Shown piece after piece: positions 19,125 through 59,225 of a DNA stretch of 64,000 nucleotides. Where the stretch lies: contig JAPOPM010000175.1 in NCBI GenBank assembly GCA_026712905.1, positions 4,419-68,418 of the forward strand, read 5' to 3'. The translations under genes were made by a program, and so were the position numbers. This DNA comes from Deltaproteobacteria bacterium (GTDB lineage Bacteria > Desulfobacterota > Binatia > UBA9968 > JAJDTQ01). The notes below the pieces were generated by a model, which did not search any database, had not been told where the DNA came from, and was given only the letters and a program-made list of their open reading frames with translations. Each line of letters begins with the position of its first letter. Position 1 is the stretch's first letter.

Positions 19125-19282
19125 CTCGAAACAGCGGGAATCCAGGCGGCCGGGGCGGAGCCAACGCCCCGAAACGTCATTCCCGCGGAAGCGGGAATCC
19201 AGGCGGGGTGGTGGGGCACTACAGCGGCGTTTTTCCGCCTCGCCACCCCTGTATTCCCGCTTCCGCGGGAATGACGATTCGC
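19125..19282. repeat. Composite REP/MITE-like intergenic repeat, copy A (core palindrome GTCATTCCCGCGGAAGCGGGAATCCAGG and its inverted copy)
   Basis: Direct sequence comparison. The same 28-bp core and flanking modules recur at 24.1, 28.7, 46.7-47.0, 50.7, 52.4, 58.2 and 59.0-59.2 kb. Confidence 0.8.
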
Positions 19283-24104: not shown

Positions 24105-24305
24105 GACCGTGTCAAGACTCCGCTCGGATGAGAATTGGCACCAATGCCCCGAGTCGTCATTCCCGCGAAAGCTTGCCCTCGACCCCGATCGGGGGCGGGA
24201 ATCCCTGCCCCACCCCGCCTGGATTCCGGCTTCCGCGGGGATGACGTATTCGTCACGTCTCCGCCTGGCGGGTTTTGACACGGCCTGTTCCGCGGGAATG
24301 ACGAA
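24105..24305. repeat. Composite REP/MITE-like repeat, copy B
   Basis: Contains the tgtcaagactccgct module, the gtcattcccgcgaaagc core, the cccgatcgggggcgggaatcc module and an inverted core. Confidence 0.75.
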
Positions 24306-28438: not shown

Positions 28439-28661
28439 GGTTTCCTCCCCTGGGCGCGGCGGCCGGAGGCGCGTCACGGCGGCTCCGGCGGGCCAGCCCT
28501 CATGGCATGCGCGGATCATATTACAAGGAGGGGGGCGCGTCGACACCCGCCGTCCAGGCTGTGTCCATGCCCCGCTCGGACCAGCAACGGCGCGGATCCC
28601 CTCTCCGTCCGGACACGTAAACGATTCGCCCCTTCTTGGCTCAGACACAGGGACGGCACGG

Positions 28662-28878
28662 ACTCCCGAAACGTCATTCCCGCGGAAGCTTGCCCTCGAC
28701 CCCGATCGGGGGCGGGAATCCAGGAGGGGTGAGGCGGGGAATACGGCCGCTTGGCCCCTCCCCGCCCCTGGATTCCCGCCCCCGATCGGGGTCGAGGGCA
28801 AGCTTTCGCGGGAATGACGTTTCGGGGCGTTGGTACTTCGGGGGTATTGACACAGCTTGTACCGCCGGAATGACGGAG
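28662..28878. repeat. Composite REP/MITE-like repeat, copy C (near-palindromic overall)
   Basis: aaacgtcattcccgcggaagcttgccctcgaccccgatcgggggcgggaatccagg ... cctggattcccgcccccgatcggggtcgagggcaagctttcgcgggaatgacgttt; the two halves are inverted copies. Confidence 0.8.
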
Positions 28879-28953
28879 AGGTGGAATGACCGTCATAAGA
28901 CATCGTTGCCGTGAAACTTGCCCGACCTTCCCGGACGTTATAAGGTCGCTTCC

Positions 28954-30408
28954 ATGTCGACGAATCGGCCTGTCATCCGGGGCGCGGCCACCGCCCTCGC
29001 TCACACCCCGAGCTTGGTCCGCTACGGCTCCAAGCCGTTCCGCGAAGCCCAGGCCCGCCCGGACTTCCTGGCGGAGCTGGCGCGGAACCTGTGGAGCTAC
29101 GACGACGCGTGCCGATACCTGCCGAACCAGGTGTTCATCGGAAGCCGGTCGCCGGCGCGGCTGTGGGAGGTGGAGCAGCCCTGGTTCGACAAGCTGGCCG
29201 ACGCGGACGGCGGCGACCCGCCCTTCGGGCACATCATGGACGAACGGCGTTTCCTCGCCTTGCTGGCCTGCGCGGACCCGTTCAAGCACGTACTGCTGCG
29301 GGAACGGTTCTGGGACGAGATGGGTCCGGTTCTGGAATCCGCGCCGCTCACGGCGCCGCTGACCGCCAGGACGCCGGCGCTGCTCACCGATGCGCAGATG
29401 GACGCCGAGCTGGAGTCCGCCGACAGCCTGCCGCTCTTCGCCGGGGGCGAAGGCGCGCCCGTGGGAGTCGTGAAGACGGGCCACTCCGAGGACGAAGCGC
29501 TCTCCGCATCGGTGCTGCTGGAAAACCTCTGCTGCAAGGTCTCGGGCGCCCTGGCCGTGCACGAACTGCTGAACCACGTCGACGGCCTGGGCCCGGGCGA
29601 CGTCGACCTGGTGCTGAGTTGCTCGGAGGAAGCGGTGGGCGACCGCTACCAGCGCGGCGGCGGCAACCTGGCCAAGGCCATCGCCGAGTTCGCGGGCTGC
29701 GATCTCGGCACCGGCATCGACATCAAGGACTTCTGTGCCGCGCCAATTCCCGCCATGGTCATCGGCGCTTCGCTGGTGGAGAGCGGCGTGTTCGAGAACG
29801 TCGTCGTGGTGGGCGGCGGTTCGCTTCCCAAGCTCGGGATGAAGTCCCTCTACCACCTCGAACAAGGCATCCCGGTGCTGGAGGACGCGCTGTCCGCGGT
29901 GGCCGTGTGGATCGGCCGCGACAACGGCAGCAGCCCGACGGTGAATTTGCAAGCCGTCGGACGCCATCCCGTCAAGGCCGGCGCCGCCCTCGACAAGCAG
30001 TTCCGGGAGCTTGTTCTGGAGCCGCTGAGGCGGCTAGAATGGGGCGTCGACCGGCTCGACCGCGTGGTCACCGAGCTGCACAACCCGGACATCACCGTGG
30101 CCGCCAAGGCCGGCGACGTGGCCGCCCGCAACTACAAGATGATGGCCGCCATGCTCGCCATGGCCAAGGAGATCGACCGCAGCGACATCGCCGGCTTCGC
30201 CCGCGCCAAGGGCGTGTGCGGCTACGCCCCCACTCAAGGGCACATCGCCTCGGGTTTCGTGTACGTGCCCCACGCGCTGCGGGAGATGGCCGCCGGGAAC
30301 ATCCGGAACTGCATGCTGGTGGCCAGGGCGAGCCTATTCCTGGGCCAGATGACCGAGCTGACGGACGGAATGTCGGTGCTGATCGAACGGAACGGCGCGT
30401 CTCAGTAG
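28954..30408 (+). CDS. Glycine/sarcosine/betaine reductase complex component C-like protein (GrdC-like, thiolase/PlsX-like fold)
   Basis: About 484 aa from the ATG (MSTNRPVIRGAATALAHTPSLV...). It lies immediately upstream of grdA. Motifs CSEEAVGDRYQRGGGNLAKAIAEFAGC, NVVVVGGGSLPKLGM, NPDIT, NYKMMAA, APTQGHIASG and SLFLGQMTELTDG resemble what I recall of GrdC. This assignment is made from memory and not verified by alignment. Confidence 0.55.
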   Translation: MSTNRPVIRGAATALAHTPSLVRYGSKPFREAQARPDFLAELARNLWSYDDACRYLPNQVFIGSRSPARLWEVEQPWFDKLADADGGDPPFGHIMDERRFLALLACADPFKHVLLRERFWDEMGPVLESAPLTAPLTARTPALLTDAQMDAELESADSLPLFAGGEGAPVGVVKTGHSEDEALSASVLLENLCCKVSGALAVHELLNHVDGLGPGDVDLVLSCSEEAVGDRYQRGGGNLAKAIAEFAGCDLGTGIDIKDFCAAPIPAMVIGASLVESGVFENVVVVGGGSLPKLGMKSLYHLEQGIPVLEDALSAVAVWIGRDNGSSPTVNLQAVGRHPVKAGAALDKQFRELVLEPLRRLEWGVDRLDRVVTELHNPDITVAAKAGDVAARNYKMMAAMLAMAKEIDRSDIAGFARAKGVCGYAPTQGHIASGFVYVPHALREMAAGNIRNCMLVARASLFLGQMTELTDGMSVLIERNGASQ

Positions 30409-30490
30409 CGCTCAACCTTACGAAAATACGGGACTTTTACACGGATAGGGCTACTACAAGAATTGACCCTACCAAAACGAGGAGGACCCC

Positions 30491-30961
30491 ATGTCGGCAC
30501 AACCCATCACCCTCAACGGCAAAAAGCTCATCATCCTCGGCGAACGGGACGGCGTCCCCGCCCCGGTCATCCAACAGGCCATCGCTGGACTGGGAGGCGA
30601 AGTCGCGTACGCCGCCACCCAGTGCTTCGTTTGAACAGCCGCTGGGGCCATGGACCTTGAGGATCAAGGTCGAATAAAAGAACTCGCGGAAGCCTACGGA
30701 AAAGACGACATCGTGGTGCTGCTCGGCGCCCCCACAACCGAGAGCAGCCAGGTCCAGTTCGAGACCGTTACCACCGGCGACCCCTCCTACGCCGGCCCCC
30801 TCGCCGGCGTGGAACTCGGGCTCCCGGCCTACCACGTCTTCGAGCCCAACGTGAAAGCCGCCATCGACCCCGCCCAGTACGCCGAGAACATCGAGATTCT
30901 GGAAATGGGGCTGGAGGCGGACGCCATCGTGGACGCGCTGGCGGGGATGCGGGCGGGGTAG
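30491..30961 (+). CDS. grdA: Glycine/sarcosine/betaine reductase selenoprotein A (GrdA), with selenocysteine encoded by in-frame TGA at 30632-30634
   Basis: ATG at 30491 is preceded by GAGGAGG. Translation gives [59 protein letters not shown]...ETVTTGDPSYAGPLAGVELGLPAYHVFEP..., the GrdA architecture including the CxxU redox motif. The track shows only the C-terminal piece (30650..30961) because of the UGA. Confidence 0.9.
30653..30671 (+). promoter_or_regulatory. SECIS-like stem-loop downstream of the grdA UGA (GACCTTG-AGGAT-CAAGGTC)
   Basis: Perfect 7-bp stem with a 5-nt loop beginning 18 nt 3' of the UGA codon. Position and shape fit a bacterial selenocysteine insertion element, but the full element has not been modelled. 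Confidence 0.4.
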
Positions 30962-30967
30962 ACGTAA

Positions 30968-31105
30968 CGCGGCAAGGGAAGTCACCTCACGTTGTACTAC
31001 GGCGGTCGGAAGACCATCGTGAAGGATCGCCGGAAGGAGATTAGCCGGAGTCTTCTCGCCGCCAGGATCCGCCAGCTTGGACTCGATCCGAATGACCTTA
31101 GGTAG
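30968..31105 (+). pseudogene. hicA: hicA toxin remnant (5'-truncated; encodes only the C-terminal ~45 residues GKGSHLTLYYGGRKTIVKDRRKEISRSLLAARIRQLGLDPNDLR)
   Basis: In the same frame as grdA, beginning right after its TAG and a TAA. Matches the C-terminal half of HicA (GSHxxxxHP...KxLxxGTLRxILKQAGL) but lacks the N-terminal ~20 residues and any start codon. Confidence 0.6.
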
Positions 31106-31124
31106 GGTAGGAGTAAGGATCGTT

Positions 31125-31553
31125 ATGCAATTTCGCTATCCAGCCAGACTCCAAGCGGACCCCTCGGGAGAACTCGTTGTCTCCTTCCGGGACTTCCCCG
31201 AGTGTCTCACGTCTGGAGCCGATCAAGCCGAAGCACTCGTTGAGGCGCGGGACGCGCTTGAAGAAGCCGTCGCCGGCCGCATTGACGACGACGAGCCGAT
31301 CCCAACGCCAAGCCGACGGCGCACCGGCGAACATCTGATCGCGGTGCCGCCCGATATGGCGGCAAAGGCCGCGTTCGTCCTCGCTTTACGTGCCAGCGGG
31401 TTGTCGCGCAACGCATTTGCACAGCGCCTCGGTGTCGACGAGAAGGTCGTACGCCGGATGCTCGACCCACGGCACCACACCGCCGCCAACCGGATTCACA
31501 AAGCGTTGCGAGTGCTGGGACAGGAACTCATCGTCGAATCTCACGCGGCATGA
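31125..31553 (+). CDS. hicB: HicB-family antitoxin
   Basis: MQFRYPARLQADPSGELVVSFRDFPECLTSGADQAEALVEARDALEEAV is the classic HicB N-terminal domain, followed by a C-terminal HTH-like domain. AGGAG ribosome-binding site; ATG is internal to the track ORF. Confidence 0.75.
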   Translation: MQFRYPARLQADPSGELVVSFRDFPECLTSGADQAEALVEARDALEEAVAGRIDDDEPIPTPSRRRTGEHLIAVPPDMAAKAAFVLALRASGLSRNAFAQRLGVDEKVVRRMLDPRHHTAANRIHKALRVLGQELIVESHAA

Positions 31554-31598
31554 CCGGCGCGGCGGTTCTGGGAGCTCGTCCTTGAGCCGTTGCGGGGT

Positions 31599-31994
31599 CT
31601 ACAGGGTCGGGACGAGCCGGGACTGGATGATGCGCGCGTCGCGTGTCAGCACCGTTGCGCCGAGAAGCTGTGCCGAGGCGACAATGACCCGGTCGGCCGG
31701 GTCGCGATGAAAGGCGGCGGGAAGGGCGGCCACGGCCGCGGCAACCGCGGGTGAGATGCCGACCCGCTGCACCAAGGGCGGGGCGGTCGCAGCCTCGAGC
31801 CACTCCCTCAGCGGCAAATGAAACGAGATCCGCTTGAGGTTGTACAGCGTGGCAATCTCCCACAGGCTGATGTCGGAAACCCACAGCGGATTCTCGGGAC
31901 CGGCCTCTCGAAGGACTTCTTCCTGCTCCGCCGAAAGATGGCGGTCCGCGCCCATCCAGTGAATCAGAATGTGTGTATCGAGGAGCGCCTTCAC
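31599..31994 (-). CDS. vapC: PIN-domain toxin VapC
   Basis: 131 aa; MKALLDTHILIHW start (GTG) with PIN acidic residues. Overlaps the phd stop by 4 nt (GTGA). Confidence 0.8.
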   Translation of the reverse strand: MKALLDTHILIHWMGADRHLSAEQEEVLREAGPENPLWVSDISLWEIATLYNLKRISFHLPLREWLEAATAPPLVQRVGISPAVAAAVAALPAAFHRDPADRVIVASAQLLGATVLTRDARIIQSRLVPTL

Positions 31995-32239
31995 CCCGTC
32001 TTCCCCGCCTCGGCCTCCCAGAAGTCGGCATCCAGGACCGGCCCCACAATATCTCCGTGTACCTCCACCGTTCCAAAAAGCGCATGCTGCGGGTAGCGGT
32101 GCTGCCTGGGGACCGGCGGGACAAGCTGGGCGACCGGCTTGCCGCGTTTCAGGATCGTAACCGCCTGTCCCGTCTGTACGACTTCATCGAGGATGGCCAA
32201 GCACTTTGCCTTGAATTCCGAGGCATTGATTTCCTTCAT
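31991..32239 (-). CDS. Phd/YefM-family antitoxin (VapB-type partner)
   Basis: 82 aa; MKEINASEFKAKCLAILDEVVQTGQAVTILKRGKPVAQLVP matches the Phd/YefM signature. Confidence 0.75.
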   Translation of the reverse strand: MKEINASEFKAKCLAILDEVVQTGQAVTILKRGKPVAQLVPPVPRQHRYPQHALFGTVEVHGDIVGPVLDADFWEAEAGKTG

Positions 32240-32309
32240 GTGACCAGACTATATGACTAGTCAATGGAAATCAACGCAAGGCATGGAACCATGCAGAAGG
32301 AGACCCACC

Positions 32310-33125
32310 ATGGCAAACCACATCCAAGGACCCCTCTACTACGAGCGCATGGGCCGCACCGGCCCGGTGATGGCGTTCATCCATCCGAACCCGATGGACC
32401 AGTCGTGCTGGATCTTCCAGATGGCGCATCTGTCGACATGGTACCGGTGCATATCCATCGACATTCCGGGGTATGGGCGGTCGCCGAAGGCAGAGGCGGG
32501 GCTGACCATGGATGACATGGCAGAGGCGTGCTGGGAGGCCATCGACGACGCGACGCCCGGGGAGGATGCCATCCTGGTGGGCTCTTCGGTGGGATCGGCC
32601 ATCGCCCCGTACATGTATCACCAGCATCCGGACCGGACGAAGGCGATCATCCTGTCGGGCAAGGGATATTCCACCGACAAGAGCAACTTCCAGCGGCGCA
32701 TCGACACCTACCGCGCCAACGGCATCGGCTTTCGCTGGAGGTACACGTTCGAGGACTTGAGCCCGGCGTTCCGCGCGACGCCGCTGGCGCATTTCTTCGC
32801 CAACCTGTTCACCGAACGCAACGAGTTCGCGGATGTGGACACGATCTGTCACCAGTTCGGCGCGCTTCAGGAGCAGGAACCCGAGGGCCATTACTCAGGC
32901 ATCGGGTGCCCGGTCACCATCCTCACCGGCAGCGAGGACAACGCCCATCTGCGCTCGTTCGCCTTGCAGGCACAAATACCGGGTTGCGAGTTGAAGGTGT
33001 TGCCCGGTGCCGGGCACGCATGCCAGATGGAGCAGCCCTGGCTGTACGACCGCTTCATGATCGAGTTCCTCACCAAATACGGCCTGTTTCCGAAAACGCC
33101 GAAGCCGGCTTCTTCCGGATTCTGA
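32310..33125 (+). CDS. Alpha/beta hydrolase (paralog 1)
   Basis: GSSVGS nucleophile elbow; MANHIQGPLYYERMGR start preceded by GAAGGAG. Close paralog of 37560..38375. Confidence 0.75.
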   Translation: MANHIQGPLYYERMGRTGPVMAFIHPNPMDQSCWIFQMAHLSTWYRCISIDIPGYGRSPKAEAGLTMDDMAEACWEAIDDATPGEDAILVGSSVGSAIAPYMYHQHPDRTKAIILSGKGYSTDKSNFQRRIDTYRANGIGFRWRYTFEDLSPAFRATPLAHFFANLFTERNEFADVDTICHQFGALQEQEPEGHYSGIGCPVTILTGSEDNAHLRSFALQAQIPGCELKVLPGAGHACQMEQPWLYDRFMIEFLTKYGLFPKTPKPASSGF

Positions 33126-36868: not shown

Positions 36869-36916
36869 CCGGACGGACTTGCGCGCACGCGCGACGGACC
36901 GCGTAAGCAAACCCGG

Positions 36917-37252
36917 TCAAGCCGTTGCCAAGACGCGGGAGAGGGCCGTCCTGATGGCGCGGGCGTCCCGCGTCGACAACGAGCCGATCCTGCGAACGAT
37001 CATACCGTCATCAACGGTGAAGAGCTTGAAGCGGACCTTGCAGGGGACACTGAGGCCCACTCCCTGCCAGTCCTGAATATCCACGTCACTCGGCCAGGGG
37101 GCACGCACCGAGGTGATCATGGTCAAGATCGATTGTTCGTGAGCGGCGTTGAAGTCCGCCGATGAGACGACCAGGGCTGGCCGACGCTTGCTGGTCTCGC
37201 GGTCCGCGAAAGGGAAAGGGACGACGACCACGTCGAGCGTGTCAAAGGTCAC
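36917..37252 (-). CDS. mazF: PemK/MazF-family toxin (endoribonuclease)
   Basis: 111 aa; VVVVPFPFADRETSKRRPALVV motif; GTG start overlapping the mazE stop. Confidence 0.75.
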   Translation of the reverse strand: MTFDTLDVVVVPFPFADRETSKRRPALVVSSADFNAAHEQSILTMITSVRAPWPSDVDIQDWQGVGLSVPCKVRFKLFTVDDGMIVRRIGSLSTRDARAIRTALSRVLATA

Positions 37253-37466
37253 GCCACGCTTCCTCGTCCTCGGGAGAGACCCATTCGCTGAGGACTTCGG
37301 AGAGACCCTTCAGGTAGTCGTCCTCTGCCGGAATGACCTTGCGAACCACGACATGATCATCCGCGACCTCGAAAGTGATCAAATCACCCTCCCGGAGGTT
37401 CGCCGCCTGGCGTATCTTCTTGGGAATCGTCGTCTGCCCGCGTGAGGTAATCTTGGCGAGTTCCAT
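37242..37466 (-). CDS. mazE: AbrB/MazE/SpoVT-family antitoxin
   Basis: 74 aa (MELAKITSRGQTTIPKKIRQAANLREGDLITFEV...), the 3' tail of track ORF 37242..38330. The rest of that ORF is antisense to the hydrolase gene. Confidence 0.65.
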   Translation of the reverse strand: MELAKITSRGQTTIPKKIRQAANLREGDLITFEVADDHVVVRKVIPAEDDYLKGLSEVLSEWVSPEDEEAWRDL

Positions 37467-37559
37467 TTGCCTGCCCCCGAACATACAGAATATAAGCAAT
37501 ACAGAATTTCGGTGCAACCACGGGCGAACGGTTCTGAACCACCGCAACGGAGGAACATC

Positions 37560-46674: not shown

Positions 46675-47000
46675 CCTATACGTCATTCCCGCGAAACAGG
46701 CTGTGTCAACAACTCCATCCGAGAGAGGCACCCACGCCCCCAAATCGTCATTCCCGCGGAAGCGGCTGTGTCAAAACGTCGTCCGGACAAGAGTTGGCGC
46801 CAACCCCCCGAATCGTCATTCCCGCGGAAGCGGGAATCCAGGGGCGGGGAGGGGCTGAAACGAGCCTGTTTCCCCGCCTCACCCCTCCTGGATTCCCGCG
46901 TCCGCGGGAATGACGATTTGGGGGCGTGGGTGCCTATTCTCATCCAACCGGAGTTTTGACACAGTCCGGGAAGCGGGAATCCAGGGGCGGGGCGGTGAGC
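46675..47000. repeat. Composite REP/MITE-like repeat cluster, copy D (about 325 bp; three core units plus tgtcaaaac modules)
   Basis: Three copies of gtcattcccgcg[ga]a[ga]c, with a full gtcattcccgcggaagcgggaatccaggggcgggg ... ccctcctggattcccgcgtccgcgggaatgacg inverted pair. Confidence 0.8.
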
Positions 47001-50689: not shown

Positions 50690-50806
50690 ACCCCGAATCC
50701 GTCATTCCCGCGGAAGCGGGAATCCAGGGGTGGAGAGGGGTCCAGCGGCCGTGGGTCCTCCCCTCACCCCGCCTGGATTCCCGCTTTCGCGGGAATGACT
50801 GTCGGG
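50690..50806. repeat. Composite REP/MITE-like repeat, copy E
   Basis: ccgtcattcccgcggaagcgggaatccaggggtgg ... ccgcctggattcccgctttcgcgggaatgac inverted pair. Confidence 0.8.
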
Positions 50807-52339: not shown

Positions 52340-52516
52340 TTGGACATTGCCTTTGTCATTCCAGGCTATGTCAAGACTCCGCTTGGCCACGCAACGGCAC
52401 CGCCGTACGAGTCGTCATTCCCGCGGAAGCGGGAAGGTGGATTCCCGCTTCCGCGGGAATGACGACTCGGGGCGTTGGTGTCAATTCTCATCCAAGCGGA
52501 GTTTTGACACAGCCTG
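52340..52516. repeat. Composite REP/MITE-like repeat, copy F
   Basis: tgtcaagactccgcttggccacg module, gtcattcccgcggaagcgggaaggtggattcccgcttccgcgggaatgacg inverted pair, gagttttgacacagcc module. Confidence 0.8.
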
Positions 52517-58159: not shown

Positions 58160-58230
58160 GGCCGTGTCAAACAGCGGGACCATACGGGCCATACGAAACG
58201 TCATTCCCGCGGAAGCGGGAATCCAGCCTT
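58160..58230. repeat. REP/MITE-like repeat, short copy G (single core unit plus gtgtcaaacagcgg module)
   Basis: aaacgtcattcccgcggaagcgggaatccag. Confidence 0.7.
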
Positions 58231-58954: not shown

Positions 58955-59225
58955 TTGCGGTGTCAATTGGGGATGCCTCGGGCAGGACCCCGCCCCGCTC
59001 TTGGATTCCCGCTTTCGCGGGTGTGTCAAGACTCCGCTTGGCCACGAGACGGCACCGCCCTACGGATCGTCATTCCCGCGGAAGCGGGAATCCAGGGGTG
59101 GTGGTGGGGGTTAAACGAGGCGGTTTCCCCGCCTCACCCCTCCTGGATTCCCGCTTCCGCGGGAATGACGATCCGTAGAATCCCGCCTCACGAGTCTTGG
59201 CACAGCCGCTTCCACCGGGATGACG
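58955..59225. repeat. Composite REP/MITE-like repeat cluster, copy H
   Basis: tggattcccgctttcgcggg, tgtgtcaagactccgcttggccacg, gtcattcccgcggaagcgggaatccaggggtggtggtggggg ... cccctcctggattcccgcttccgcgggaatgacg. Confidence 0.8.

What the first reader, a model, noticed from the sequence alone, without database searches (positions are those of the whole stretch)
30962..31105. 5'-truncated hicA toxin gene fused in-frame behind grdA
Translation from 30968 gives GKGSHLTLYYGGRKTIVKDRRKEISRSLLAARIRQLGLDPNDLR*. This matches the C-terminal two-thirds of HicA (dsRBD-like mRNA interferase, the GSH...KKxLxxGTLRxILKQAGL pattern). There is no start codon or N-terminal helix; stop codons TAG (grdA) and TAA lie at 30959-30967. 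The partner hicB (31125..31553) is intact with a good ribosome-binding site. An orphaned antitoxin next to a decapitated toxin is a typical scar of gene insertion or deletion.
Basis: seen in the sequence. Interest (0 to 1): 0.55.

Follow-up and report, generated by a model that had tools for sequence, protein, structure and literature searches.

The report
Decapitated hicA toxin, orphan hicB antitoxin
A roughly 180-base deletion has removed the promoter, start codon and first 26 codons of a HicA toxin gene just downstream of grdA in an uncultured Binatia bacterium, leaving an intact HicB antitoxin gene; this is an ordinary, well-documented way in which toxin-antitoxin pairs decay.

Summary
Window 30968-31105 encodes residues 27-71 of a 71-residue HicA toxin, 96% identical to full-length relatives. 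It has no start codon and sits behind two stop codons (grdA TAG, then TAA). hicB (31125-31553) is intact.

Five related Candidatus Binatia species carry grdA, intact hicA and hicB in the same order. Against them the window lacks about 177-180 bp. The lost stretch runs from a few bases after the grdA stop to hicA codon 26. It held a conserved promoter-like block (TTGATA, TTCGGACA-N4-TGTCC palindrome, TA-rich hexamer, GTG start) and the coding sequence for helix α1 and strand β1.

Six other assemblies ≥99% identical to the window carry the same junction, so it is a real allele. The remnant has M59R at a position invariant in 50 homologues.

Other Binatia species lost hicA at this locus through different deletions. 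About half of 50 species with this HicB subfamily lack a usable hicA. Their hicB stays under purifying selection (dN/dS about 0.1).

The remnant+hicB block is a recombinant import: 97-98% identical to another clade, against 86% in the flanks.

Verdict: a toxin pseudogene plus orphan antitoxin, a known kind of toxin-antitoxin erosion. Low to moderate interest.

The parts
30436..30463 (+). Promoter-like site (TTTACA-16-AAGAAT) upstream of grdA; a possible source of read-through transcription into hicB
   Evidence: Consensus scan. It was the only promoter-like hit in 30350-31700, and no terminator-like site lies between grdA and hicB. Its function is inferred, not shown.
30491..30961 (+). grdA, glycine reductase selenoprotein A, complete, with the in-frame selenocysteine codon TGA at 30632-30634; forms the left border of the deletion
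   Evidence: Pfam GRDA, E 2.7e-61, profile 1-147/147. Sequence read. Orthologues lie upstream of hicAB in L001, L007, L010-L014, L016 and L056.
30962..30967 (+). Stub of the grdA-hicA spacer (ACGTAA) holding the deletion junction; it contains the second stop codon, TAA at 30965-30967
   Evidence: Alignments. Intact orthologues have 105-110 nt of spacer here followed by hicA codons 1-26. L014 and L001 read GTAAAGCG at this point, so the TAA probably comes from the left flank.
30968..31105 (+). hicA remnant: codons 27-71 plus the TAG stop. It has no start codon, ribosome-binding site or promoter. The catalytic His32 codon is at 30983-30985, the M59R change at 31064-31066 and the F70L change at 31097-31099
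   Evidence: M59 is invariant in an alignment of 50 HicA homologues. In the AlphaFold2 model of full-length orthologue P0001, the missing residues 1-26 form helix α1 (3-17) and strand β1 (21-25).
31110..31119 (+). Shine-Dalgarno region of hicB (GGAGTAAGGA), 5 nt upstream of the ATG
   Evidence: Read from the sequence. Conserved in all orthologues aligned.
31125..31553 (+). hicB, an intact orphan antitoxin gene (142 codons) of the E. coli type: N-terminal HicB domain plus C-terminal helix-turn-helix
   Evidence: Pfam HicB-like_2 (E 1.3e-5) and HTH_31 (weak). PDB 6hpb_B and 6u0i_A, E about 3e-20, residues 3-136. The protein is 100% identical to the HicB of L001, which has an intact hicA. There are 9 synonymous and 0 non-synonymous differences from L001.

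Best explanation
This is an eroded type II toxin-antitoxin locus of the HicAB family in an uncultured Candidatus Binatia bacterium.

Shown: the ancestral arrangement was grdA, about 105 nt of spacer, hicA (71 codons, GTG start), 19 nt, then hicB. One deletion of about 177-180 bp removed most of the spacer, the conserved promoter-like block and hicA codons 1-26. That block consists of a TTGATA -35-like hexamer, a TTCGGACA-N4-TGTCC palindrome in the 17-nt spacer, a TA-rich -10-like hexamer, and the GTG start about 11 nt further on.

Inferred: the remnant cannot be made into a toxin. It has no start codon, ribosome-binding site or promoter, it lacks helix α1 and strand β1 of the double-stranded-RNA-binding-domain-like fold, and it has begun to collect damaging changes (M59R, F70L).

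Inferred: both breakpoints lie in a short imperfect direct repeat (AAAGCGGCA / AAACGCGGCA). This fits slipped-strand or microhomology-mediated deletion.

Inferred, not shown: hicB survives intact with its own ribosome-binding site but without its native promoter. It is now most likely transcribed by read-through from grdA.

The outcome follows the usual order of toxin-antitoxin decay. Losing the toxin is harmless, while losing the antitoxin first would be lethal. The orphan antitoxin can then persist either as a neutral leftover or because it still neutralises related HicA toxins or regulates something.
For: - **HicA identity of the remnant:** Pfam profile 17-58/58. It is 96% identical to the 71-aa HicA P0001, and there are 125 hits.
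- **Intact orthologous loci:** L007/L016, L001, L010, L012 and L013 have grdA, intact hicA and hicB. The grdA-stop-to-hicB gap is 340-343 nt there against 163 nt in the window.
- **Base-level alignment:** one clean gap with conserved sequence on both sides.
- **Real allele:** the same junction is in L002-L006 and L063, six other assemblies ≥99% identical to the window.
- **Conserved promoter/operator-like block:** it lies upstream of hicA in about 25 loci from several phyla, while the rest of the spacer is not conserved.
- **Structure:** the AlphaFold2 model of the full-length orthologue (pLDDT 90.8) has α1 at 3-17 and β1 at 21-25. The best PDB fold match is Yersinia pestis HicA3, TM 0.65-0.68.
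- **Relaxed constraint on the remnant:** M59 is invariant in 50 homologues but is R in the window. Against L001 the remnant shows 2 synonymous and 2 non-synonymous changes, while hicB shows 9 and 0.
- **No terminator-like site** between grdA and hicB.
- **Independent hicA deletions** with other breakpoints at the same locus in L011, L014 and L056.
- **Literature:** toxin truncation precedes antitoxin loss (PMC13617665), and orphan antitoxins are abundant (PMC7192599).
Against: - Nothing contradicts the deletion itself.
- The expression and function of the orphan hicB are untested, and there are no transcript data.
- The conserved upstream block was not called by the strict sigma-70 scan, because its -10-like hexamer in Binatia (TAGACA/TAAACA) is poor. 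'Promoter/operator' therefore rests on conservation and on analogy with characterised HicB operators (PMC11594946).
- The contrast between remnant and hicB substitutions rests on few changes (Fisher P about 0.08, my calculation from the counts).
- Only 64 kb of the genome is visible, so another hicA elsewhere cannot be excluded.
Confidence: 0.92

Rival explanations
1. The deletion was not a later event in a resident operon. It arose during horizontal import of a partial hicAB fragment by homology-facilitated illegitimate recombination: a donor fragment beginning inside hicA was joined to the recipient at the short repeat AAAGCGGCA / AAACGCGGCA on the left and by homology or another junction on the right.
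For: In the grd flank the window groups with L011, L013 and L016 (89-90% identity) and is only 86% identical to L001, L010 and L012. The remnant+hicB block, in contrast, is 97-98% identical to L001, L010 and L012, within that clade's own diversity. The left edge of the high-identity block coincides with the deletion junction (30968). The right edge (31595) coincides with the vapBC insertion/deletion difference.
Against: The deleted bases are gone, so the true left end of the imported block cannot be located. Import of a whole module by ordinary homologous recombination, followed by a deletion, gives the same present-day sequence. No donor with vapBC next to this hicB was found.
Confidence: 0.3
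2. The remnant is still expressed as a small protein, for example 37 aa from TTG 30992 behind the AAGGGA at 30974-30979. Such a protein would have a function such as binding HicB.
For: An in-frame TTG with a weak purine-rich stretch 12 nt upstream exists. The C-terminal helix of HicA is retained.
Against: The product would lack the catalytic His32, α1, β1 and part of β2. The only substitutions specific to this allele hit an invariant position (M59R) and a conserved one (F70L). Other lineages delete hicA almost entirely (L011, L014, L020/L021, L032), so no selection to keep this piece is evident.
Confidence: 0.03
3. The grd genes were inserted into hicA, or a rearrangement moved the 5' part of hicA elsewhere.
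Against: grdA immediately upstream of an intact hicA is the shared arrangement in at least five Binatia species. Neither the missing 180 bp nor the missing 26 residues occur elsewhere in the window beyond chance matches.
Confidence: 0.01
4. Assembly or sequencing artefact.
For: None specific. Metagenome assemblies can collapse repeats.
Against: The identical junction appears in six further contigs from different projects and assemblers (JGI, ENA, Logan). The region contains no long repeat.
Confidence: 0.01
5. Stop-codon read-through of grdA yields a GrdA-HicA fusion protein.
For: The remnant is in the grdA reading frame.
Against: Two different stop codons (TAG and TAA) lie two codons apart. 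The shared frame follows from the deletion length and has no counterpart in any orthologue. The piece that would be fused is a folding-incompetent fragment.
Confidence: 0.01

Closest known systems
Escherichia coli K-12 HicAB (hicA-hicB operon; structures 6hpb/6hpc of the HicAB complex and 6u0i of HicB)
   Same: The gene order is the same, with the toxin first. HicB is of the same type (N-terminal HicB domain plus C-terminal helix-turn-helix) and aligns over residues 3-136 at E about 3e-20. The HicA His aligns with E. coli His23 (PMC11594946). In intact relatives a palindrome sits in the promoter region, as expected for a HicB operator.
   Different: In the window the toxin gene is decapitated and the promoter/operator block is gone. 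HicA here is only weakly similar to E. coli HicA (E 0.29). The intact relatives appear to have a single promoter with the GTG start about 11 nt after the -10-like hexamer, which looks leaderless. E. coli has the two-promoter P1/P2 arrangement.
Eroded chromosomal toxin-antitoxin loci and orphan antitoxins (ccdO157 decay in E. coli; Photorhabdus TA erosion, PMC13617665; Klebsiella orphan antitoxins, PMC7192599)
   Same: The toxin is inactivated by truncation while the antitoxin ORF stays intact. The locus sits in a variable islet beside other TA pairs (vapBC, mazEF). Related lineages show loss of the toxin first and of the antitoxin later (L052, L053, L056 and L060 also have a degraded hicB).
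   Different: This is a different TA family and a different, uncultured host. Here the deletion also removed the autoregulated promoter and placed hicB directly behind a metabolic gene (grdA).
Yersinia pestis HicA3/HicB3 (4p78)
   Same: It is the best structural match for the modelled full-length HicA orthologue (TM 0.65-0.68, rmsd 2.7 Å). HicB3 binds inverted repeats overlapping the -10 box (PMC11594946).
   Different: HicB3 has a ribbon-helix-helix DNA-binding domain, whereas this HicB is the helix-turn-helix type.

Membership tests
HicA toxin (Pfam PF07927) | Significant sequence match to the HicA profile or to bona fide HicA proteins | tested here: met
   As a fragment it matches profile positions 17-58/58 (E 1.8e-4, 22 bits, below the 27-bit cut-off). 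It is 96% identical to 71-aa proteins that carry PF07927.
HicA toxin (Pfam PF07927) | Conserved catalytic histidine in the G-S-H motif (E. coli His23) | tested here: met
   His32 is encoded at 30983-30985. It is invariant in 50 homologues and aligns with E. coli HicA His23 (PMC11594946).
HicA toxin (Pfam PF07927) | Complete α1-β1-β2-β3-α2 double-stranded-RNA-binding-domain-like fold | tested here: not met
   Residues 1-26 (α1 at 3-17, β1 at 21-25 in the AlphaFold2 model, pLDDT 90.8) are deleted.
HicA toxin (Pfam PF07927) | Translatable gene: start codon with ribosome-binding site or leaderless start, and a promoter | tested here: not met
   The GTG start and the upstream promoter-like block are deleted. 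Two stop codons lie immediately upstream. The only in-frame start-like codon is TTG at 30992, after the His codon.
HicB antitoxin, E. coli type | Full-length homology to solved HicB, covering the N-terminal HicB domain and the C-terminal helix-turn-helix | tested here: met
   6hpb_B and 6u0i_A, E about 3e-20, query residues 3-136 of 142.
HicB antitoxin, E. coli type | Pfam HicB family match above the curated cut-off | tested here: inconclusive
   HicB-like_2 scores 25.7 bits against a cut-off of 30; HicB_lk_antitox scores 23.5 against 27. E-values are 1e-5 to 7e-5.
HicB antitoxin, E. coli type | Neutralises its cognate HicA and binds an operator | not testable with these tools
   This needs a kill/rescue assay and a gel-shift assay. 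The candidate operator GGACA-N4-TGTCC is absent from the window beyond chance.
Functional type II toxin-antitoxin module | Intact toxin and antitoxin genes in one autoregulated operon | tested here: not met
   The toxin gene is truncated and the promoter/operator block is deleted.
Eroded TA locus / orphan antitoxin | Antitoxin ORF intact, toxin reduced to a non-coding remnant, and orthologous loci with the intact pair | tested here: met
   The pattern matches that described in PMC13617665 and PMC7192599.

The most novel reading that the evidence does not exclude
The orphan HicB is not a leftover. It has repeatedly been kept by selection after toxin loss, as stand-alone immunity against incoming HicA toxins. 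This hicAB family moves between phyla in the same communities, so such toxins would be encountered. In the Binatia lineages the antitoxin has been re-wired to constitutive read-through expression from grdA.

Support:
- About half of 50 species representatives with this HicB subfamily lack a usable hicA. At least three deletions with different breakpoints occurred at the grdA locus alone.
- Orphan-only pairs that share one ancestral deletion still show hicB dN/dS of about 0.1 over dS 0.2-0.45.

Not shown: any expression or neutralising activity, or that the window lineage itself has been under such selection since its deletion.
Probability: 0.3. Interest if true: 0.45.

Novelty: new member of a known kind. 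Interest (0 to 1): 0.22.

Why it matters
For annotation, 30968-31105 should be marked as a hicA pseudogene and hicB as an orphan antitoxin. This genome should not be counted as having a working HicAB module at this site.

More broadly, the locus is a clean natural example of toxin-first decay. It has base-level breakpoints, several independent deletions at one orthologous site, and orphan antitoxin genes that stay under purifying selection. That makes it a convenient test case for whether orphan antitoxins serve as anti-addiction or anti-toxin immunity. It does not change what is known about toxin-antitoxin systems.

Tried and rejected
- **Missing 5' part elsewhere in the window.** I searched with blastn (the deleted 180 bp from L001 and L007) and tblastn (full-length HicA and its N-terminal 32 residues). 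Only chance matches of at most 16 nt or E ≥ 0.04 appeared.
- **Operator-like sites elsewhere in the window.** GGACA-N4-TGTCC with one mismatch gave 2 hits against 2.6 expected, so no alternative HicB target is visible.
- **Rfam scan of the whole window.** No family reached its threshold.
- **Strict sigma-70 scan on the intact locus L001.** It did not call the conserved block upstream of hicA. The promoter reading rests on cross-phylum conservation.
- **Metagenome scan with a 21-mer from the left flank,** meant to find same-species contigs with an intact hicA. It found one contig, which again carries the deletion.
- **Literature search for 'Foliamicus',** to document the habitat of the MAGs sharing this module. 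It found nothing. From memory I suspect these are sponge-associated MAGs, but I did not verify this and do not use it.
- **Insertion of grd genes, assembly artefact and read-through fusion.** All rejected on the comparative evidence.

Full report
**What is in the sequence**

grdA (30491-30961, with the selenocysteine codon TGA at 30632-30634) is complete. It matches Pfam GRDA at E 2.7e-61 across the whole profile. It ends with TAG at 30959-30961, followed by ACG and then TAA at 30965-30967.

The same reading frame then gives RGKGSHLTLYYGGRKTIVKDRRKEISRSLLAARIRQLGLDPNDLR and a stop at 31103-31105. hicB follows at 31125-31553, behind GGAG/AAGGA at 31110-31119. The only start-like codon in frame within the fragment is TTG at 30992, which lies after the His codon.

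**Is it HicA, and is it more than chance?**

The 45-residue peptide matches Pfam HicA_toxin positions 17-58 of 58 (E 1.8e-4). The score of 22 bits is below the 27-bit cut-off only because a third of the domain is absent.

Against 5.8 billion proteins it finds 125 relatives, nearly all 71-79 residues long and carrying PF07927. The best is 96% identical over all 45 residues (E 2.9e-19). The fragment corresponds to residues 27-71 of a 71-residue protein.

**What the missing part is**

An AlphaFold2 model of the full-length orthologue P0001 (50-sequence alignment, pLDDT 90.8) has these elements:
- α1 at residues 3-17
- β1 at 21-25
- β2 at 33-37
- β3 at 40-44
- α2 at 53-62

Its best solved-structure match is Yersinia pestis HicA3 (4p78_C, TM 0.65-0.68), followed by double-stranded-RNA-binding domains. 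The missing residues 1-26 are therefore helix α1 and strand β1.

The catalytic histidine is retained. It is His32, encoded at 30983-30985, and aligns with E. coli HicA His23 (PMC11594946).

HicB of the window aligns over residues 3-136 with solved E. coli HicB (6hpb_B and 6u0i_A, E about 3e-20). It is therefore the E. coli type, with a C-terminal helix-turn-helix.

**How the truncation arose**

Looking up where close HicA and HicB relatives are encoded gave orthologous loci. A scan of one genome per species identified the organisms as Candidatus Binatia MAGs.

Five species (L001, L007=L016, L010, L012, L013) carry grdA, then 105-110 nt of spacer, then an intact hicA with a GTG start, then 19-22 nt, then hicB. 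The distance from the grdA stop to the hicB start is 340-343 nt there and 163 nt in the window.

Base-level alignments show one clean gap of about 177-180 bp in the window. It begins a few bases after the grdA stop and ends at hicA codon 26. Sequence is conserved on both sides.

The order grdA-hicA-hicB is therefore ancestral. The event was a deletion, not an insertion of grd genes.

Both breakpoints lie in a short imperfect direct repeat: AAAGCGGCA just after grdA (as seen in L014 and L016) and AAACGCGGCA at hicA codons 25-28. This fits slipped-strand or microhomology-mediated deletion, which is an inference. The TAA at 30965-30967 probably comes from the left flank, because L014 and L001 read GTAAAGCG there.

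**Is it a real allele?**

Five contigs from different projects (L002-L006) are 99.3-100% identical to the window over up to 8.3 kb. A sixth (L063) was found with a left-flank 21-mer. All six carry exactly the same junction.

No contig of this species with an intact hicA was found. The nearest species representatives are only 86-90% identical to the window across the grd genes (where other flank segments range from 82% to 94%).

**What else was lost**

I compared the 70 nt upstream of hicA in 31 loci. About 25 of them, from several phyla, share one block while the rest of the spacer varies freely. The phyla include Binatia, Latescibacterota, Rhodothermales, Gemmatimonadota, Gammaproteobacteria, Dehalococcoidia and Bryobacterales. 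The block consists of:
- TTGATA, TTGCTA or TTGACA
- TTCGGACA-N4-TGTCC, a palindrome that fills a 17-nt spacer
- a TA-rich hexamer (TATTCT, TATATT, TACAAT; TAGACA or TAAACA in Binatia)
- the GTG start about 11 nt further on

I read this as the hicAB promoter with a HicB operator in its spacer and a near-leaderless start. That reading is by analogy with the HicB operators characterised in E. coli, Y. pestis and Burkholderia pseudomallei (PMC11594946). It is an inference from conservation. The strict sigma-70 scan did not call it in Binatia.

The deletion in the window removed the whole block. No similar palindrome occurs elsewhere in the 64 kb beyond chance. Neither the missing DNA nor the missing peptide is present elsewhere in the window.

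**State of the two genes**

Compared with L001, whose HicB protein is identical:

| Gene | Synonymous differences | Non-synonymous differences |
|---|---|---|
| hicB | 9 | 0 |
| hicA remnant (45 codons) | 2 | 2 |

The two non-synonymous changes in the remnant are M59R (31064-31066) and F70L (31097-31099). Both are specific to the deletion allele. M59 is invariant in an alignment of 50 HicA homologues.

The numbers are small (Fisher P about 0.08, my calculation from the counts). They point to a remnant that is drifting and a hicB that is still constrained.

No promoter-like or terminator-like site lies between grdA and hicB. One promoter-like site lies upstream of grdA at 30436-30463. Read-through from grdA is therefore the most likely source of hicB transcripts. 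This is inferred, not shown.

**Wider pattern**

At the same grdA-hicAB locus, other Binatia species lost hicA through different deletions:
- L011 keeps only the last seven codons of hicA.
- L014 lost all of hicA and part of the -35-like hexamer.
- L056 lost hicA and part of hicB.

I surveyed 50 informative species representatives with this HicB subfamily:

| State of hicA | Number of loci | Detail |
|---|---|---|
| Apparently intact | about 24 | Start codon not verified in every case |
| Point lesions | 8 | Frameshift, stop codon, internal deletion or lost start; some may be long-read assembly errors |
| Wholly or partly deleted | 18 | Many different breakpoints |

Several of the deleted loci keep the operator directly in front of hicB (L020, L021 and L032, at -41 to -48 nt). 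hicB remains a full-length ORF in 13 of the 18. It is itself degraded in L052, L053, L056, L060 and possibly L057. This is the expected second step of decay.

Pairs that share one ancestral deletion diverged as orphans, yet hicB remains constrained:
- L020 and L021 share an identical junction and show dN/dS 0.11 at dS 0.21.
- L028 and L030 show dN/dS 0.12 at dS 0.19.
- L023 against L028 or L030 shows dN/dS 0.08-0.10 at dS 0.45.

Orphan hicB genes of this family are therefore maintained by purifying selection for long periods.

**Mosaic origin**

In the grd genes the window groups with L011, L013 and L016 (89-90% identity) and is 86% identical to the L001/L010/L012 clade. The remnant+hicB block, however, is 97-98% identical to that clade, within the clade's own diversity.

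The block was therefore exchanged by recombination. Its left edge is the deletion junction. Its right edge (31595) is where a vapBC pair is present in the window but absent from L001, L010 and L012.

I cannot decide whether the deletion happened during the import of a partial fragment or after the import of a whole module.

**Comparison with what is known**

Toxin truncation with a surviving antitoxin is the common route of chromosomal toxin-antitoxin erosion. [quoted passage not shown] Decay of chromosomal toxin-antitoxin systems is also discussed in PMC7167474. Orphan antitoxins are abundant in Klebsiella and have been proposed to act as anti-addiction modules (PMC7192599).

The window's locus fits this kind. 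As a HicA family member it fails two defining features, a complete fold and a translatable gene, so it should be filed as a hicA pseudogene. HicB passes the tests that sequence can address.

**Verdict**

This is a new instance of a known phenomenon and is of low to moderate interest.

The most interesting reading still open is that the orphan HicB is kept as stand-alone protection against incoming HicA toxins and is now expressed from grdA. I give that about 0.3 probability.

Noticed in passing
window 28450-28916 (inverted repeat arms 28665-28734 and 28757-28826); partial copies near 19160-19280, 24140-24204, 46675-46995, 50692-50784, 52394-52479, 58194-58216 and 59048-59154: A 70-nt-arm inverted repeat (94% complementary) lies in a roughly 467-bp stretch between the divergent upstream gene and the grd genes. 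The 85-91%-identical relatives have a shorter stretch here (about 150 bp in L001) that matches only the first ~100 nt and lacks this repeat. Pieces of the same palindromic unit are scattered through intergenic regions of the window, as in a REP- or MITE-like repeat family.
   Followed up: partly
window 31599-31994 (-) and 31991-32239 (-): A vapC (PIN domain) and phd/yefM antitoxin pair lies directly downstream of hicB. It is present in the window's own lineage but absent at this site in L001, L010, L012 and L011. L007 carries a type I restriction-modification system with AbiEii downstream of hicB instead. The stretch after grdA is therefore a variable toxin-antitoxin/defence islet.
   Followed up: partly
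loci L010-L060 (genome-contig hits): This hicAB module is shared among MAGs of Binatia, Latescibacterota, Rhodothermales, Gemmatimonadota, Gammaproteobacteria, Dehalococcoidia and Bryobacterales. HicB is 62-99% identical to the window's, and the upstream promoter/operator-like block is the same. This suggests cross-phylum horizontal transfer.
   Followed up: partly
loci L020, L021, L032, L050, L051: In these genomes hicA has been removed almost precisely while the promoter/operator-like block is kept directly in front of hicB. In L020, L021 and L051 the first four hicA codons also remain. This yields what looks like an autoregulated stand-alone hicB.
   Followed up: partly
window 30968-31595 compared with 28917-30961: The sequence is a mosaic. 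The remnant+hicB block is 97-98% identical to the L001/L010/L012 clade, while the adjacent grd genes are only 86% identical to that clade and 89-90% identical to L011, L013 and L016.
   Followed up: yes
window 32253-33125; L001 6889-8583; L003 3573-5267: The α/β-hydrolase gene downstream is present as two tandem paralogues (about 83% identical) in L001 and in L003, a strain 99.3% identical to the window. It is a single copy in the window and L002, another small structural polymorphism in this neighbourhood.
   Followed up: no
window 30491-30961 (TGA at 30632-30634): grdA is a selenoprotein gene whose in-frame TGA causes automatic gene callers to split it into 47-aa and 103-aa products in every contig examined. 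The gene upstream (28918-30408; DUF5940 plus a weak ketoacyl-synthase III-like hit) may be another glycine-reductase-type subunit. It was not examined further.
   Followed up: no
window, about 36900-37470 (inferred from L002 8180-8729): A mazF/pemK-mazE pair lies a few kilobases downstream, after the peptide ABC-transporter genes. It adds to the density of toxin-antitoxin genes in this region.
   Followed up: no
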